IMG/VR virus record: IMGVR_UViG_2706794678_000002
Length of the DNA stretch: 16,789 nucleotides
From: a virus
Lineage: Duplodnaviria > Heunggongvirae > Uroviricota > Caudoviricetes
Reading direction: 5' to 3' (one strand)
A model generated the notes under the pieces. It did not search any database and was not told the origin of the DNA. It saw only the letters and a program-made list of their open reading frames with translations. How positions within the stretch are numbered: position 1 is the stretch's first letter; each line of letters opens with the position of its first letter. Of this stretch, positions 2,492-16,789 are shown in pieces. The position numbers and the translations under genes were made by a program.

Positions 2492-5055
2492 CGTCCACCT
2501 CCGGAGAACAGGCCACCATCACGCATCTGTGTCTGAATTTCATCACGGGCACCCTTGCGGGCCATGTCATACACGGCCTTCATCATCTGTGGACCTGGCA
2601 GACCATTCGTACCGTCGTTCTGAATCACCACGTGATTGTTCTGATTAAAATTAATGCCTTCAGCCCGCCGCATCTGCGCCGGACTTCCGGCACCGCCCAC
2701 ATAACCACCTTCCGCATAGCCGCGCATCAGCCGGTAGAGATTCCCCACGCCAATCCGGCTGGTTGCCTCCTTCGTGAAGACAAATTCACCACGGTGAACA
2801 ATCCCNNNNNNNNNNNNNNNNNNNNNNNNNNNNNNNNNNNNNNNNNNNNNNNNNNNNNNNNNNNNNNNNNNNNNNNNNNNNNNNNNNNNNNNNNNNNNNN
2901 NNNNNNNNNNNNNNNNNNNNNNNNNNNNNNNNNNNNNNNNNNNNNNNNNNNNNNNNNNNNNNNNNNNNNNNNNNNNNNNNNNNNNNNNNNNNNNNNNNNN
3001 NNNNNNNNNNNNNNNNNNNNNNNNNNNNNNNNNNNNNNNNNNNNNNNNNNNNNNNNNNNNNNNNTGTGCAATACCATCAAAGGTCTGCGTGGCTGCACTT
3101 TTAACCTGTGACATACTGTCCGTGGCGCTCTCTTCCCACTCACTCCAGCCGGACTTCAGGCCTGCCATCCAGCTCCCGCGAAGCTGGTCTTCAGCCGCCC
3201 AGGTCTTTTTCTGCTCTGACATGACGTTATTCAGCGCCAGAGGATTATCGCCATACTGTTCCTTCAGGCGCTGTTCCGTGGCTTCCCGCGCTGCCTGCCG
3301 GTCAGTCAGCCCCCGGTTTTTCGCATCAATGGCTGCCCGTTTTGCCCGTTGCTGCTGTGCGAATTTATCCGCCTGCTGCGCCAGCGCATTCAGGTGCTCC
3401 TGATACGTAACCTTGTCACCAAGTGCAGCCAGCTGGCGTTTGTACTCCAGCGTCTCGTCTTTATGCGCCAGCAGGGATTTCTCCTGTGCGGACAGCTGGC
3501 GACGTTGTGCCGCCTCCTCCAGTACCGCGAACTGACTTTCTGCCTTCCACAAATCCCGGCGCTGCTGGCTGATTTTCTCATTCGCTCCGGCATGCTTCTC
3601 CAGCGTCCGGAGTTCTGCCTGAAGCGTCAGCAGGGCCGCATGAGCACTGTCTTCCTGACGATCGCCCGCATACACCTTCACGCCGGACTGTTTCGGCTTT
3701 TTCAGCGTCGCTTCATAATCCTTTTTCGCCGCCGCCATCAGCGTGTTGTAATCTGCCTGCAGGATTTTTCCGTCTTTCAGTGCCTTGTTCAGTTCTTCCT
3801 GACGGGCGGTATATTTCTCCAGCGGCGTCTGCAGCCGTTCGTAAGCCTTCTGCGCCTCTTCGGTATATTTCAGCCGTGACGCTTCGGTATCGCTCTGCTG
3901 CTGCGCATTTTTGTCCTGTTGACGCTGTTGATCTACCCTCTTTTGGGCTGCATCCCGCTCCAGGCGTTTTTTTTCACGATCATCCCAGTAACGCGCCCGT
4001 GCTTCATCGTTAACGAAATAATCATCCTTGCGCAGATTCCAGATGTCGTCTGCTTTCTTAAACGCAGCCTCTGCCTTAATCAGCATCTCCTGCGCGGTAT
4101 CAGGACGACCAATATCCAGCACCGCATCCCACATGGATTTGAATGCACGTGCAGTCCTGTCTGCCCAGGTCTCCAGCGTGCCCATGTTCTCTTTCAGGCG
4201 GCGGGTCTGGTCATCAAACCCTTTCGTTGCGGCCTCGTTCGCCGCCTGCAATGCCCCGGCTTCATCGCCGGAACGCTGCAACTGAGCAACATACGCAATC
4301 TGCTCCGCCGTCACGTTATGGAACTGGCGTGCCATCGCCGTCAGCCCCGACGTCGGGTCTGTGGTCAGCTTCCCGAAGGCTTCAGCGACCTTGTCCACCT
4401 CCACGCCGGATGCATAGGAGAAACGCGCCACACTCTGGCTGATGGACGCAATCTGAGCCTCACCGCTTACCCCCGCCTTAACCAGTGCGCTGAGTGACTC
4501 GCTGGTCTGGTTAAACGTCAGCCCTGCCGCCTGCCCGGCTCTGGACAGGACCAGCATACGATCTGCCGTCAGTCCCGCCTGATTACCGGAAAGGACCAGC
4601 GTTTTGTTGAAATCGGACAGGGTTGAGTTGCCCTGATACCAGGCATACGCCAGCGCACCGGTCGCCACCGCCAGCGAGGTGGCCCCCACCATCGGCAGGG
4701 TGATCGCGCCGGCAAGCCCCCTGAACATGGGGATCATCCCGCCGAAGGAGTCCTTAACCTGACCACCCTGTTGCAGCAGGATCAGCCAGGGATTCTGCCC
4801 CCCTGCAAGCTGCGTGGCCACGTCGGTGAACTGTGCAGGCAGCATACGCATGGCGGCTTTATACTGCCCGACGGAAATCCCCGCTTTCTGTGCAGCCAGC
4901 GCCTGTCGGCTCAGCGACTGTTCAACGACTGCCGCTGTTTTTTTCGCATCACTTTCCGTACCGGAAAAATGACGCCTGACTCTGGCCATCTGCTCGTCAA
5001 ATCTGGCCGCATCCAGACTCAAATCAACGACCAGATCGCCTACCGGTTCAGCCAT
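2488..5055 (-). CDS. H: Tail tape measure protein H (about 855 codons including an unresolved N-run)
   Basis: ORF-track 855-aa product MAEPVGDLVVDLSLDAARFDEQMARVRRHF... with long coiled-coil-like Ala/Gln/Lys/Glu-rich middle; lambda gpH is 853 aa as I recall; position between G-T and M. Interrupted by N-run 2806-3064, so exact length is uncertain. Confidence 0.9.
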   Translation of the reverse strand: MAEPVGDLVVDLSLDAARFDEQMARVRRHFSGTESDAKKTAAVVEQSLSRQALAAQKAGISVGQYKAAMRMLPAQFTDVATQLAGGQNPWLILLQQGGQVKDSFGGMIPMFRGLAGAITLPMVGATSLAVATGALAYAWYQGNSTLSDFNKTLVLSGNQAGLTADRMLVLSRAGQAAGLTFNQTSESLSALVKAGVSGEAQIASISQSVARFSYASGVEVDKVAEAFGKLTTDPTSGLTAMARQFHNVTAEQIAYVAQLQRSGDEAGALQAANEAATKGFDDQTRRLKENMGTLETWADRTARAFKSMWDAVLDIGRPDTAQEMLIKAEAAFKKADDIWNLRKDDYFVNDEARARYWDDREKKRLERDAAQKRVDQQRQQDKNAQQQSDTEASRLKYTEEAQKAYERLQTPLEKYTARQEELNKALKDGKILQADYNTLMAAAKKDYEATLKKPKQSGVKVYAGDRQEDSAHAALLTLQAELRTLEKHAGANEKISQQRRDLWKAESQFAVLEEAAQRRQLSAQEKSLLAHKDETLEYKRQLAALGDKVTYQEHLNALAQQADKFAQQQRAKRAAIDAKNRGLTDRQAAREATEQRLKEQYGDNPLALNNVMSEQKKTWAAEDQLRGSWMAGLKSGWSEWEESATDSMSQVKSAATQTFDGIAXXXXXXXXXXXXXXXXXXXXXXXXXXXXXXXXXXXXXXXXXXXXXXXXXXXXXXXXXXXXXXXXXXXXXXXXXXXXXXXXXXXXXXXGIVHRGEFVFTKEATSRIGVGNLYRLMRGYAEGGYVGGAGSPAQMRRAEGINFNQNNHVVIQNDGTNGLPGPQMMKAVYDMARKGARDEIQTQMRDGGLFSGGGR
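2806..3064. other. Run of 259 N (unresolved sequence / assembly gap) inside gene H
   Basis: Directly visible in the sequence. Confidence 1.
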
Positions 5056-7045: not shown

Positions 7046-7620
7046 CGCTTTATTACCATTCTCAGTTGATGCTGCAGCGCATAGCCCAGCTCTTTCGGAA
7101 GACGTTCACGCCGTATCCGTTCAATATTCTGTTTAAACGCCGTGGTCAGCGGCACCGCCATCGGGATTTTCACCACATCAATGGGGTAACGGTTTTTCCC
7201 GGCCACACGCTGCATAACATGCCACCGGCCGTTTTTCAGTTGCTGAATAAACGCGCCGGGAATACGACGGTTACCCACCACAAGCACGCTGCCGCCACCT
7301 TTCAGGGATGAACGCTGCCCCTTTTTATGACGCCTGCGGCGGGACAGGACAACCCGCGCATTACCCAGCTTGATTACGGGCAAATCCCCCCGGTTAACTT
7401 TGATTCTGGCCTGCGGATTTTTGACCGTGGCCCTTTTCAGCCTGGCCCTTTCCTTTACCAGTTTCCGGCGTACCTTTGTCTCACGGGCAACCTGTGACGC
7501 AGACTGCGATATCGCGGATGAAGCAACGCGGTTAATGGCCATTGCGGCGGCACCGGGCACCGCCGTTTTGCTGATACGGCTGAGGTTTTCAACGGCCTGC
7601 TCAAGACCTTTTATGGCCAT
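7042..7620 (-). CDS. Z: Tail completion protein Z (192 aa)
   Basis: ORF-track 192-aa product MAIKGLEQAVENLSRISKTAVPG...; AGGGGG Shine-Dalgarno 5 nt upstream of ATG 7620; matches lambda gpZ. Confidence 0.92.
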   Translation of the reverse strand: MAIKGLEQAVENLSRISKTAVPGAAAMAINRVASSAISQSASQVARETKVRRKLVKERARLKRATVKNPQARIKVNRGDLPVIKLGNARVVLSRRRRHKKGQRSSLKGGGSVLVVGNRRIPGAFIQQLKNGRWHVMQRVAGKNRYPIDVVKIPMAVPLTTAFKQNIERIRRERLPKELGYALQHQLRMVIKR

Positions 7621-14896: not shown

Positions 14897-14922
<26 letters not shown>

Positions 14923-15442
14923 TCAGCAACCCCGGTATCAGTTCATCCAGCGCGGCTGCTTTGTTCATGGCTTTGATGATATCCCGTTTCAGGAAATCAA
15001 CATGTCGGTTTTCCAGTTCCGGAAAACGCCGCTGCACCGACAGGGGGATCCCGTCGAGAATACTGGCAATTTCACCTGCGATCCGCGACAGCACGAAAGT
15101 ACAGAATGCGGTTTCCACCACTTCAGCGGAGTCTCTGGCATTTTTCAGCTCCTGTGCGTCGGCCTGCGCACGCGTAAGTCGATGGCGTTCGTACTCAATA
15201 GTCCCTGGCTGGAGATCTGTCTCGCTGGCCTGCCGCAGTTCTTCAACTTCCCGGCGCAGCTTTTCGTTCTCAATTTCAGCATCCCTTTCGGCATACCATC
15301 TTATAACGGCGGCAGAGTCATAAAGCACCTCATTACCCTTGCCACCGCCTCGCAGAACGGGCATTCCCTGTTCCTGCCAGTTCTGAATGGTACGGATACT
15401 CGCACCGAAAATGTCAGCCAGCTGCTTTTTGTTGACTTCCAT
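14897..15442 (-). CDS. Nu1: Terminase small subunit Nu1 (181 aa)
   Basis: ORF-track 181-aa product MEVNKKQLADIFGASIRTIQNWQEQGMPVLRGGGKGNEVLYDSAAVIRWYAERD... (winged-HTH N-terminus); matches lambda gpNu1; the 3-prime end overlaps the A start by 26 nt. Confidence 0.93.
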
Positions 15443-15619: not shown

Positions 15620-15631
15620 CGCCTTCCGCCC
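15620..15631 (-). other. cosN: cosN, 12-nt cohesive-end core (terminase nicking region); minus-strand sequence GGGCGGAAGGCG
   Basis: Flanks match the lambda cos junction as I recall it (GATCCGACAGGTTACG on one side, CGCGGGTTTTCGCTATTTATG on the other); the 12-mer between them occupies the position of the lambda cohesive end. Confidence 0.7.
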
Positions 15632-15666: not shown

Positions 15667-15683
15667 ATGATAATAATTATCAT
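15667..15683. repeat. Perfect 17-bp AT-rich palindrome ATGATAAT-A-ATTATCAT (8-1-8), Fur-box-like
   Basis: Reverse complement of 15667-15683 is identical except for the central base; lies immediately beside cosQ. Confidence 0.7.
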
Positions 15684-15830
15684 CTACATGTCACAACGTG
15701 CATCTACGCCATCAAACCACGTCAAATAATCAATTATGACGCAGGTATCGTATTAATTGATCTGCATCAACTTAACGTAAAAACAACTTCAGACAATACA
15801 AATCAGCGACACTGAATACAGGGCAACCTC

Positions 15831-16064
15831 ATGTCAACGAAGAACAGAACCCGCAGAACAACAACCCGCAACATCCGCTTTCCTAACCAAATGATTGAAC
15901 AAATTAACATCGCTCTTGTTCAAAAAGGGTCCGGGAATTTCTCAGCCTGGGTCATTGAAGCCTGCCGCCGGAGACTGTGCTCAGAAAAAAGAGTTTCGCC
16001 TGAAGCAAACAAAGAAAAGAGTGACATTACTGAATTGCTCAGAAAACAGGTTAGACCAGATTGA
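15831..16064 (+). CDS. Small basic hypothetical protein (77 aa), possible ribbon-helix-helix DNA-binding fold
   Basis: ORF-track product MSTKNRTRRTTTRNIRFPNQMIEQINIALVQKGSGNFSAWVIEACRRRL...: Arg-rich N-tail, short predicted beta-strand (RNIRFP), then helix-turn-helix-like segment with a G-x-[ST] turn; weak RBS. A homologous ORF exists at the equivalent cos-proximal position of lambda as I recall. Confidence 0.55.
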   Translation: MSTKNRTRRTTTRNIRFPNQMIEQINIALVQKGSGNFSAWVIEACRRRLCSEKRVSPEANKEKSDITELLRKQVRPD

Positions 16065-16121
16065 AGCAATTTAGATAATCGTGCAGACTACGCCCCCTCA
16101 TATCACATGGAAGGTACTACA

Positions 16122-16532
16122 ATGGCTCAGGTTGCCATTTTTAAACAAATATTCGATAAAGTGCGAAATAATTTAAACTATCACTGGTTTTATTCTGAAC
16201 TAAAACGTCACAATGTCTCACATTACATTTACTATTTAGCCACAGAGAATATTCATCTTGTTCTTGAAAACGATAATACGGTTTTAATAAAAGGACAGGG
16301 TAAGGTTGTAAATGTAAGATTTTCAAAAAATAAATGCCTTATAGAAGCCACCTTAAAAGGATTCAAATCAGGAGAGTTATCATTTTACGAATACAGGAAA
16401 AATCTTGCTACAGCAGGGGTTTTCAGATGGATTACAAATATCCACGAAAACAAAAGGTATTACTATACCTTTGATAATTCATTACTCTTTACTGAGAACA
16501 TACAGAACACTACACAAATATTTCCGCACTAA
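16122..16532 (+). CDS. Conserved hypothetical protein (136 aa), probably DUF1398 / YbcV-like prophage right-end protein
   Basis: ORF-track frame 16107-16532; start placed at second ATG (16122) because GGAAGG lies 7 nt upstream; product [58 protein letters not shown]... The family assignment is from memory of the lambda/DLP12 right-end ORF, not from a search. Confidence 0.65.
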
Positions 16533-16569: not shown

Positions 16570-16789
16570 TCGCTGGCATGATGAAATATGTGTACCCGGT
16601 AACCCCGGTGTGCATCGTTTTTGATTATTCCCGCACACTCGCGCAGAAGGAGTTCCCCGTCGGGCTACGGTCTCTGTTAATACGGGAATACGGCGACGAT
16701 TGGATTTGCCCCTATATTTCCAGACATCTGTTATCACTTAACCCATTACAAGCCCGCTGCCGCAGATATTCCCGTGGCGAGCGATAACC

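What the first reader, a model, noticed from the sequence alone, without database searches (positions are those of the whole stretch)
15831..16064. Small RHH-like ORF antisense to the late operon, next to cos
This 77-aa basic protein has the hallmark layout of ribbon-helix-helix DNA binders (Arg-rich tail, short beta-strand, two helices separated by a G-x-S turn). It is transcribed opposite to all structural genes in the cos-proximal accessory slot. Its function is unknown to me; it could be a regulator of the downstream ORF or an antitoxin-like partner.
Basis: inference. Interest (0 to 1): 0.4.

Follow-up and report, generated by a model that had tools for sequence, protein, structure and literature searches.

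The report
Small prophage DNA-binding gene beside cos
This is a real, already catalogued small gene of lambda-like prophages (YnfO/YlcI family, DUF3950) that very probably folds as a ribbon-helix-helix DNA-binding protein and most likely acts as a local repressor, although no one has yet tested what it controls.

Summary
The ORF at 15831-16064 (+) is real. It encodes a 77-aa basic protein lying 199 bp from cosN, on the strand opposite Nu1/A and the other late genes. It is the Qin-type YnfO allele of Pfam DUF3950 / NCBIfam YlcI-YnfO. The locus is found in most complete E. coli genomes, and phage lambda carries an unannotated copy. Purifying selection is clear (pN/pS 0.17).

The antitoxin idea is not supported. 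The downstream DUF1398 gene is a separable module and is absent next to most relatives.

Relatives in P4-like/PICI satellites sit divergent from an Icd-like-to-primase operon. Three 12-bp GTG-N6-CAC palindromes overlap the promoters there, and their central bases co-vary with beta-strand residues 11, 12 and 14. That is the signature of an operator-binding repressor.

Only residues 1-54 are conserved; the tail is a product of a recombination junction. The operator of the lambdoid clade remains unidentified.

Verdict: a known gene family with untested function, and of modest interest.

The parts
15831..16064 (+). ynfO-type gene (77 aa plus stop); DUF3950 / YlcI-YnfO family
   Evidence: RefSeq annotates the 99%-identical locus as 'YlcI/YnfO family protein' WP_001331705.1. 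pN/pS is 0.17.
15831..15992 (+). Conserved RHH core, residues 1-54: basic N-terminal arm (1-11), strand (about 12-18, TRNIRFP), helix A (19-32), NFS turn, helix B (37-54)
15994..16047 (+). Allele-specific tail segment (residues 55-72). Lambda and DLP12 carry about 610 bp here instead (lambdap79 / ybcW).
   Evidence: blastn break points; different tails in homologues; pLDDT about 61.
15820..15823 (+). Weak Shine-Dalgarno-like AGGG, 7 nt before the ATG
   Evidence: Read directly from the sequence.
15757..15770 (+). Palindrome TTGATCTGCATCAA at -74 from the ATG. Candidate operator overlapping a weak -35 (TTGATC). Unproven.
   Evidence: A similar TTGAT-TTAA-ATCAA lies at -78 in a Salmonella island relative. 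The motif is absent upstream of the BP-4795 allele.
15667..15683 (.). It overlaps a minus-strand promoter-like site, GTGACA-16-TATCAT.
   Evidence: It occurs once in the 45-kb phage PhiR49_1.
15620..15631 (.). cosN-equivalent 12-mer, CGCCTTCCGCCC on the plus strand. It differs at 5 positions from lambda's AGGTCGCCGCCC.
   Evidence: cos annotation of phage DE3 transferred through the alignment.
14897..15442 (-). Terminase small subunit Nu1, divergent neighbour
   Evidence: Pfam Phage_Nu1 E=2.4e-101.
16052..16079 (+). Promoter-like site TAGACC-16-GATAAT just inside the start of the DUF1398 module
   Evidence: Homology to lambda and DLP12 resumes at 16044-16048.
16122..16532 (+). DUF1398 gene (YdfO/YbcV/lambdap78 family), 136 aa from the RefSeq start. 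The ORF listing start at 16107 is probably too early.
   Evidence: Pfam DUF1398 E=3.3e-43; PDB 2hh8 YdfO E=2.9e-67; RefSeq start; GGAAGG 7 nt before 16122.

Best explanation
The ORF is the YnfO-type member of the DUF3950 (YlcI/YnfO) family. Its conserved first 54 residues form a ribbon-helix-helix domain. Like other RHH proteins it should dimerise, pairing two beta-strands (T12-R13-N14-I15-R16-F17-P18) into a ribbon that reads bases in the major groove. The basic N-terminal arm and the invariant N-F-S turn would hold the DNA backbone. I infer that it is a sequence-specific transcriptional repressor acting locally. It would be expressed from the strand opposite the late operon, and therefore mainly when late transcription is off, that is, in the lysogen. 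It would bind near its own promoter, in the junction between the lysis and packaging modules. The C-terminal tail (residues 55-77) is a by-product of a recombination junction and not a functional domain. Shown here: the gene is real and under purifying selection, it belongs to the family, it has the fold, and its orientation is as stated. Inferred by analogy and from relatives: dimerisation, DNA binding and repression. Unknown: the operator and the regulated target in lambdoid phages.

Repressor mechanism in relatives: in P4-like/PICI satellites of Klebsiella, Morganella, Dickeya, Pectobacterium, Xenorhabdus, Serratia and Enterobacter, the gene is the lone plus-strand gene. It lies divergent from an Icd-like-to-primase operon. 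Three 12-bp GTG-N6-CAC palindromes sit at about -100, -76 and -30. The first two overlap a leftward promoter of the type TTGACG-17/18-TATAGT, and the third overlaps the gene's own -10.

Co-variation: the central 6 bp co-vary with residues 11, 12 and 14. Across 55 unique combinations in 17 classes, the Hamming distance is 1.41 within a class and 3.53 between classes, and 0 of 2000 permutations reach this difference. The contrast holds among pairs with at least 85% identical helix A (0.41 vs 3.55). Positions 11, 12 and 14 are hypervariable (1.8-2.3 bits) while 13 and 15-18 are nearly invariant, which is the alternation expected for a DNA-facing strand.

Local action: both candidate palindromes occur only here in a 45-kb phage that carries the same locus.

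Transcription: RNA-seq in K-12 lists ybcW-ylcI as an overlapping convergent pair (PMC12288877).
Confidence: 0.55

Rival explanations
1. It is the antitoxin of a type II toxin-antitoxin pair whose toxin is the downstream DUF1398 protein. The RHH domain would autoregulate the operon and the C-terminal tail would neutralise the toxin.
Against: The supposed toxin-binding tail is the least conserved part of the protein and differs between alleles. Homology to lambda and DLP12 breaks at codon 54. Those phages carry about 610 bp with an oppositely oriented gene between the two ORFs. BP-4795 and all satellite, island and chromosomal relatives lack an adjacent DUF1398 gene. The DUF1398 module carries its own promoter-like site. 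YdfO overexpression is reported to increase oxidative-stress resistance, with no toxicity reported (PMC4077768). PADLOC gives no hit.
Confidence: 0.04
2. It is a packaging-related or DNA-end-related accessory protein. It would bind near cos to modulate terminase action, or to guard the packaging operon from expression in the lysogen. Alternatively, it would act on the first-entering right end of the injected genome.
For: In two unrelated packaging modules the gene lies immediately upstream of, and divergent from, the first packaging gene: Nu1 here, and HNH-TerS-TerL in BP-4795. The 200 bp between cosN and the ATG are almost invariant among lambdoids, while the neighbouring DUF1398 gene is only 82-90% identical. 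A minus-strand promoter-like site pointing at cos and Nu1 overlaps the 17-bp palindrome.
Against: Satellite, island and chromosomal relatives are not next to cos or terminase genes. No motif is shared between the lambda-type and BP-4795-type upstream regions. The minus-strand promoter-like site does not exceed the 95th percentile of shuffles and is weaker in lambda. From my own knowledge, the cos sequence requirement left of cosN ends near cosQ.
Confidence: 0.15
3. It is the helper-phage counterpart of the satellite repressor. It would cross-talk with satellite DUF3950 proteins, by forming mixed dimers or by competing for operators, so that the helper and its satellites sense each other.
For: The same small family is encoded both by lambdoid phages and by P4-like/PICI satellites of Enterobacterales. 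The dimer-forming helices are much better conserved than the DNA-reading positions.
Against: This is purely inferential. The two clades are only about 40% identical. No GTG-N6-CAC site exists in the window. Known induction of Gram-negative PICIs is attributed to AlpA.
Confidence: 0.08
4. It is a conserved but functionally inert passenger: an ORF kept only by linkage to cos and by frequent recombination, and not expressed.
For: There is no convincing promoter and only a weak ribosome-binding site. The lambdoid alleles next to lambda-type cos are nearly identical at the DNA level. The canonical lambda record does not annotate the ORF.
Against: pN/pS is 0.17 against the BP-4795 allele, and the mean pN/pS is about 0.14 across 10 alleles. 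Intact relatives are spread across many Enterobacterales genera at about 40% identity with an invariant motif. ylcI is transcribed in K-12 RNA-seq.
Confidence: 0.05

Closest known systems
E. coli K-12 YnfO (Qin prophage) and YlcI (DLP12 prophage), DUF3950
   Same: Same family, and for YnfO the same allele type: 77 aa with the same tail, directly followed by the DUF1398 gene (ynfO > ydfO). Loci at K-12-like Qin and DLP12 coordinates match at 97% and 95%. RefSeq gives the same name.
   Different: Nothing substantive. There are a few substitutions, e.g. V30 here against E or D elsewhere. YlcI and the lambda copy have a different, shorter tail and an inserted gene downstream.
Arc and Mnt repressors of phage P22 (RHH, immI region)
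   Same: Small phage-encoded RHH proteins. The strand-turn layout N-[IL]-R-[FW]-P followed by helix A, a Gly-containing turn and helix B lines up by eye (Arc sequence recalled from memory). hhalign places NIRFP on NLRWP. Both control local promoters, which is inferred here.
   Different: There is no significant sequence relationship: hhalign probability is 4.8% and there is no Pfam Arc hit. No antirepressor gene is under visible control here. The operator is unknown.
CopG, omega, ParD, TacA and RelB-type RHH regulators
   Same: Best structural neighbours and best PDB profile hits. In the satellite relatives, the operator-triplet architecture overlapping divergent promoters resembles these autoregulators.
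   Different: No cognate toxin or plasmid partition or copy-control partner is present. The family has a long basic N-terminal arm and an invariant NFSAWV-x-[ED]-AC motif of its own.
Lambda bor-type morons (lysogen-expressed genes antisense to the late operon between Rz and cos)
   Same: Same genomic slot and the same antisense orientation. In lambda the unannotated DUF3950 ORF, lambdap79, lambdap78 and bor lie between cos and Rz.
   Different: bor encodes an outer-membrane lipoprotein with a documented promoter and phenotype. This gene encodes a cytoplasmic DNA binder with no documented promoter or phenotype.

Membership tests
DUF3950 / YlcI-YnfO (Pfam PF13132, NCBIfam NF041551) | Score above the curated cut-off of the family models | tested here: met
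   PF13132 scores 72.8 bits against a cut-off of 25. NF041551 scores 35.2 bits against a cut-off of 30.
DUF3950 / YlcI-YnfO (Pfam PF13132, NCBIfam NF041551) | Family motif x-I-R-F-P ... N-F-S-A-W-V-x-[ED]-A-C present | tested here: met
   Invariant columns in alignments A1 and A3.
Ribbon-helix-helix superfamily (Arc/MetJ/CopG) | Strand-helix-helix fold of about 45 residues | tested here: met
Ribbon-helix-helix superfamily (Arc/MetJ/CopG) | Obligate dimer with a two-stranded antiparallel ribbon | not testable with these tools
   Only monomer prediction was available. DSSP assigns no strand in the monomer model, as expected when the partner chain is missing.
Ribbon-helix-helix superfamily (Arc/MetJ/CopG) | Turn between the helices with a small residue and an S/T/N cap at the start of helix B | tested here: met
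   G33-S-G-N36-F37-S38, with N36, F37 and S38 invariant or nearly so. Helix B starts at residue 37.
Ribbon-helix-helix superfamily (Arc/MetJ/CopG) | Sequence-specific DNA binding through alternate strand residues | tested here: inconclusive
   There is no biochemistry. In satellite relatives, residues 11, 12 and 14 co-vary with the centre of GTG-N6-CAC sites. No operator was identified for the lambdoid clade.
Ribbon-helix-helix superfamily (Arc/MetJ/CopG) | Significant sequence match to a curated RHH family | tested here: not met
   Only sub-threshold hits were found: RHH_6 E=0.078-0.09, HicB_lk_antitox E=0.022, PDB RHH E=0.03-0.07, Arc hhalign probability 4.8%.
Type II toxin-antitoxin antitoxin | Conserved adjacent toxin gene in one operon | tested here: not met
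   DUF1398 adjacency is confined to some lambdoid alleles. It is interrupted in lambda and DLP12, and absent in BP-4795, satellites and islands.
Type II toxin-antitoxin antitoxin | Conserved C-terminal toxin-binding extension | tested here: not met
   The tail after residue 50-54 differs between alleles and has low model confidence.
Phage moron (autonomous lysogen-expressed unit) | Orientation and placement independent of the surrounding operon | tested here: met
   The gene is on the plus strand among minus-strand late genes, between the lysis and packaging modules, here and in lambda, PhiR49_1 and BP-4795.
Phage moron (autonomous lysogen-expressed unit) | Own promoter and terminator; expression in the lysogen | tested here: inconclusive
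   The best plus-strand promoter candidates score below the shuffle median, and there is no terminator after the ORF. The only indirect evidence is RNA-seq for ylcI.
Known anti-phage defence systems (PADLOC) | Match to a defence-system protein model | tested here: not met
   There is no hit for the 77-aa protein. The DUF1398 protein has only an E=0.025 chance-level hit.

The most novel reading that the evidence does not exclude
DUF3950 proteins would be a family of immunity-type RHH repressors whose operator specificity is set by strand residues 11, 12 and 14. In P4-like/PICI satellites they would lock the Icd-like-to-primase early operon through three GTG-N6-CAC operators. The lambdoid YnfO copy in this window would be the phage-side member of the same system. 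It would either guard the head of the packaging operon in the lysogen or cross-talk with satellite repressors. The canonical lambda record does not annotate its own copy.
Probability: 0.2. Interest if true: 0.6.

Novelty: already known. Interest (0 to 1): 0.3.

Why it matters
The gene itself is ordinary. It is an annotated family member carried by most sequenced E. coli. It still matters in three small ways. First, it assigns a fold and a testable mechanism to a gene on the K-12 'y-ome' list of uncharacterised genes, one that also sits unannotated 200 bp from the right end of phage lambda. Second, it shows that the gene is a separable 54-residue DNA-binding module, not half of a toxin-antitoxin pair with DUF1398. 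Third, the relatives in phage satellites show a clean operator/strand co-variation. If confirmed, that would identify a protein regulator at the early promoter of a large group of P4-like/PICI elements, and a compact RHH scaffold with readable specificity.

Tried and rejected
- Foldseek against the PDB gave no hits. A single-sequence phmmer search against the PDB gave only chance hits.
- hhalign against the Arc sequence (recalled from memory) aligned the strand in register, but with 4.8% probability.
- The sigma-70 and terminator scans and my own PWM scan found no plus-strand promoter above background upstream of the ORF.
- The satellite-type GTG-N6-CAC operator is absent upstream of the window gene.
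- TTGAT-N4-ATCAA (15757-15770) recurs at a similar position in a Salmonella island relative. However, it is not significant within the window when one mismatch is allowed, and it is missing upstream of the BP-4795 allele. I keep it only as a candidate.
- The 17-bp palindrome looks like a Fur box from memory. This was not tested, and it is not conserved at BP-4795.
- Rfam found no RNA family at the locus, and no C4/isrK-type RNA in three satellite loci.
- PADLOC gave nothing.
- Literature searches for DUF3950, YnfO and YlcI returned only lists and incidental mutations.
- The lambda ribosome-profiling paper and the Casjens-Hendrix review could not be read.
- dN/dS among lambda-type alleles was uninformative because they are nearly identical. 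The BP-4795 allele solved this.

Full report
**What is there**

The window is the left arm of a lambda-like phage or prophage read backwards. Nu1 (14897-15442), A, W, portal and the other head and tail genes lie on the minus strand. The ORF at 15831-16064 on the plus strand encodes MSTKNRTRRTTTRNIRFPNQMIEQINIALVQKGSGNFSAWVIEACRRRLCSEKRVSPEANKEKSDITELLRKQVRPD.

The cos site annotated in phage DE3 maps through the alignment to 15620-15631. The ORF therefore starts 199 bp from cosN and reads away from it, divergent from Nu1 and antisense to the late operon.

**It is a known gene**

- The protein matches Pfam DUF3950 (E=2e-20), NCBIfam YlcI_YnfO_N and phrog_949, all above their thresholds.
- The 1.39-kb region matches 5211 of 5426 complete E. 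coli genomes. RefSeq calls the gene 'YlcI/YnfO family protein', followed by a 'DUF1398 domain-containing protein'.
- The same arrangement is present in sequenced temperate phages such as PhiR49_1.
- Loci at K-12-like Qin and DLP12 coordinates match at 97% and 95%. A PdhR study gives the Qin gene order as ynfO > ydfO. This ORF is therefore the Qin-type YnfO allele.
- A 'y-ome' survey lists ynfO among uncharacterised genes. I found no functional study.

**It is a real coding gene**

The lambda-type alleles are too similar to each other to be informative. Against the diverged allele in Stx phage BP-4795, codons 1-50 give pS 0.485, pN 0.081 and pN/pS 0.17. The means over ten alleles are 0.34 and 0.046.

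An exhaustive profile search found only 190 clusters at 50% identity among 1.84 billion representatives, so the family is narrow. Word-indexed searches show genuine relatives across the Enterobacterales, and also in Pasteurella and Gilliamella.

**Fold**

The AlphaFold2 model was built with a 76-sequence alignment. It has an extended segment at residues 11-18, helix 19-32 and helix 37-54, with block pLDDT of 83-92. A low-confidence third helix follows in the tail.

- Foldseek found nothing.
- In family-profile searches against all PDB sequences, the two best hits were an RHH CopG-family protein and the RHH protein CdbA, aligned strand to strand and helix to helix. E-values were 0.16 and 0.68 with alignment A3, and 0.031 and 0.068 with A2.

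None of these sequence hits is individually significant, and no curated RHH family is matched at threshold.

**Anatomy of the gene**

Homology with the lambda and DLP12 alleles runs from Nu1 through cos to 15993, which is codon 54. It resumes at 16044-16048. Between those points lambda and DLP12 carry about 610 bp holding an oppositely oriented gene, lambdap79 or ybcW.

Homologues share residues 1-50 almost perfectly and then diverge into many unrelated tails. The conserved unit is therefore the 54-residue RHH core. The 77-aa length results from read-through across a mosaic junction.

The resumption point lies just 5' of a promoter-like site (16052-16079). That site precedes the DUF1398 gene, whose likely start is 16122, as in RefSeq.

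**Not a toxin-antitoxin pair**

- DUF1398 is adjacent only in some lambdoid alleles.
- BP-4795 has the same N-terminal domain but no DUF1398 gene. There the DUF3950 gene lies between Rz and an HNH-TerS-TerL packaging module, again on the opposite strand and 41 bp from the HNH start.
- Relatives in satellites, islands and chromosomal sites have no same-strand downstream partner.
- YdfO overexpression is reported as protective against oxidative stress, with no toxicity reported.

**What the relatives suggest about mechanism**

About half of the distant, one-per-species loci have a single architecture: integrase, AlpA and often an AntA/Bro protein on one strand, then the DUF3950 gene alone on the other strand. 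After that come an Icd-like gene, small ORFs and a primase. This matches the published layout of Gram-negative PICI and P4-like satellites.

The roughly 200-bp region between the DUF3950 and Icd-like start codons holds three 12-bp palindromes, GTG-N6-CAC, at about -100, -76 and -30. The first two bracket a leftward promoter, TTGACG-17/18-TATAGT-like. The third abuts the gene's own -10 (my reading of the sequences).

After adding metagenome and IMG/VR loci there were 55 unique protein/site combinations in 17 classes, defined by residues 11, 12 and 14. Examples:

| Residues before IRFP | Operator |
|---|---|
| x-Y-K-G | GTGTTTAAACAC |
| T-T-K-G | GTGCAyAwACAC |
| A-K-K-N | cTGTGCGCACAg (in both a Klebsiella locus, L058, and an Erwinia locus, L084) |
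| A-T-K-K | GTGCGGCCACAC |
| A-Q-K-K | GTGyACCCCCAC |

- The Hamming distance across the central hexamer is 1.41 within a class and 3.53 between classes, and 0 of 2000 label permutations reach this gap.
- The contrast persists among pairs whose next 16 residues are at least 85% identical (0.41 vs 3.55).
- Column entropies are 2.30, 2.13 and 1.80 bits at positions 11, 12 and 14. They are 0-0.38 bits at positions 10, 13 and 15-18. This is the alternation expected if one face of a strand reads DNA.
- Primase type, small ORFs and AlpA do not track the operator class.

Linkage between the gene and its sites is unavoidable, and the loci are not independent. This is strong circumstantial evidence for an operator-binding repressor, not proof.

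**Back to the window**

The lambdoid clade has T12-R13-N14 and no GTG-N6-CAC site upstream. Two candidate sites stand out:

- the 17-bp palindrome at 15667-15683;
- TTGATCTGCATCAA at 15757-15770, which overlaps a weak -35. A Salmonella island relative with T-K-N has TTGAT-TTAA-ATCAA at nearly the same distance.

Each occurs only once in a 45-kb phage carrying this locus, which would fit a local role. Neither is present upstream of the BP-4795 allele, and no motif is shared beyond chance. The operator of this clade is therefore unresolved.

Promoter evidence is weak. The only expression evidence I found is that ybcW-ylcI appears as an overlapping convergent transcript pair in K-12 RNA-seq.

**Verdict**

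The most likely reading is a dimeric RHH repressor acting locally at the lysis/packaging junction. It would be expressed when late transcription is silent. I give about 0.85 confidence that it is an RHH DNA binder, and about 0.5 that it is a local repressor.

Rival readings are a packaging or DNA-end role, cross-talk with satellite repressors, an antitoxin, or an inert passenger. They are listed with their tests.

The gene is already catalogued, so novelty is low. The satellite operator code and the unannotated lambda copy are the more interesting by-products.

Noticed in passing
L002 2932-3126 (+); J02459.1 48142-48303 (-): Phage lambda itself encodes a 64-aa DUF3950/YlcI ORF about 200 bp from its right end. 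The canonical record J02459 and the DE3 record carry no annotation there.
   Followed up: partly
L004-L007, L048-L091, L095-L188 (region -130 to -10 before each DUF3950 start): In P4-like/PICI satellites, three GTG-N6-CAC palindromes overlap divergent promoters between the DUF3950 gene and an Icd-like-to-primase operon. Their central 6 bp co-vary with protein residues 11, 12 and 14. This points to a protein repressor at the satellite early promoter. The satellite papers I searched yielded no passage about such a gene.
   Followed up: yes
L015-L046, L061, L071; many 'ena' proteins: Dozens of 95%-identical 'homologues' appear in Kitasatospora, Cohnella, Pseudomonas, Flavobacterium, Staphylococcus and others, on contigs of about 3.5 kb or about 48.5 kb. 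They look like lambda control DNA (the sequencing spike-in, from my own knowledge), not real taxonomic spread. Many carry frameshifts. OR974318/9 are 3.35-kb 'Lambda' records of this kind.
   Followed up: partly
window 15620-15631: The cosN-equivalent 12-mer is CGCCTTCCGCCC (cohesive end GGGCGGAAGGCG). It differs at 5 of 12 positions from lambda's GGGCGGCGACCT, although the flanks are nearly identical. E. coli strain 582 shares it, and the closest phage records (YDC107_1, PhiR46_1) match the 63-bp region at 96.8%.
   Followed up: partly
L002 3291-3497 (-), compared with window 15994-16047: Lambda and DLP12 carry about 610 bp with lambdap79 / ybcW between the DUF3950 and DUF1398 genes. The window has the Qin-type arrangement without it. 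A 2026 preprint reports lambdap79 as the trigger of the Vulcan NADase defence, with escapers deleting it by recombination with Qin.
   Followed up: partly
window 16107-16532: The DUF1398 gene is variously labelled 'head protein' (PHROGs), 'putative envelope protein' (lambda records) and YbcV/YdfO. The NMR structure 2hh8 is named only 'hypothetical protein ydfO'. The labels look unsupported. The likely start is 16122, not 16107.
   Followed up: partly
L201 6997-7971 (-), overlapping 7364-7564 (+); L004 3634-4608 (-): In the packaged 16.5-kb satellite vB_KppS-Ant and in a Klebsiella genome, gene callers annotate a 324-aa ORF on the opposite strand across the DUF3950 gene and its regulatory region. 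This is probably a spurious call that hides the real gene.
   Followed up: no
window 15667-15694 (-): The best promoter-like site in the region, GTGACA-16-TATCAT, is on the minus strand. It points through cos toward Nu1, and its -10 lies inside the 17-bp palindrome. From memory the palindrome also resembles a Fur box. It does not exceed the 95th percentile of shuffles and is weaker in lambda.
   Followed up: partly
window about 16590-16700; L200 about 3960-4070: A stretch of about 110 bp downstream of the DUF1398 gene is also found just downstream of the DUF3950 gene in BP-4795, which lacks DUF1398. It looks like a conserved flank of this moron slot next to the lysis genes. Its function is unknown.
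   Followed up: no
L004, L086 and L089 around 3790-3900: A conserved GC-rich stem-loop (GCCCGG...CCGGGC) lies in the leader of the Icd-like gene of the satellites, just upstream of its ribosome-binding site. Rfam gives no C4/isrK match. It may be a regulatory RNA element.
   Followed up: partly
P0136 (3694 aa, 17 matched stretches) and P0261 (783 aa, 6 stretches): Two very long predicted proteins contain many tandem copies of the DUF3950 core. They are probably artefacts of concatenated control-DNA reads. I did not examine them.
   Followed up: no
window 15978-15991 and 16036-16049: A 14-nt direct repeat (TGCTCAGAAAAAAG / TGCTCAGAAAACAG) brackets the allele-specific tail segment, near the two break points of homology with lambda. 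It may be a trace of the recombination that made this allele.
   Followed up: no
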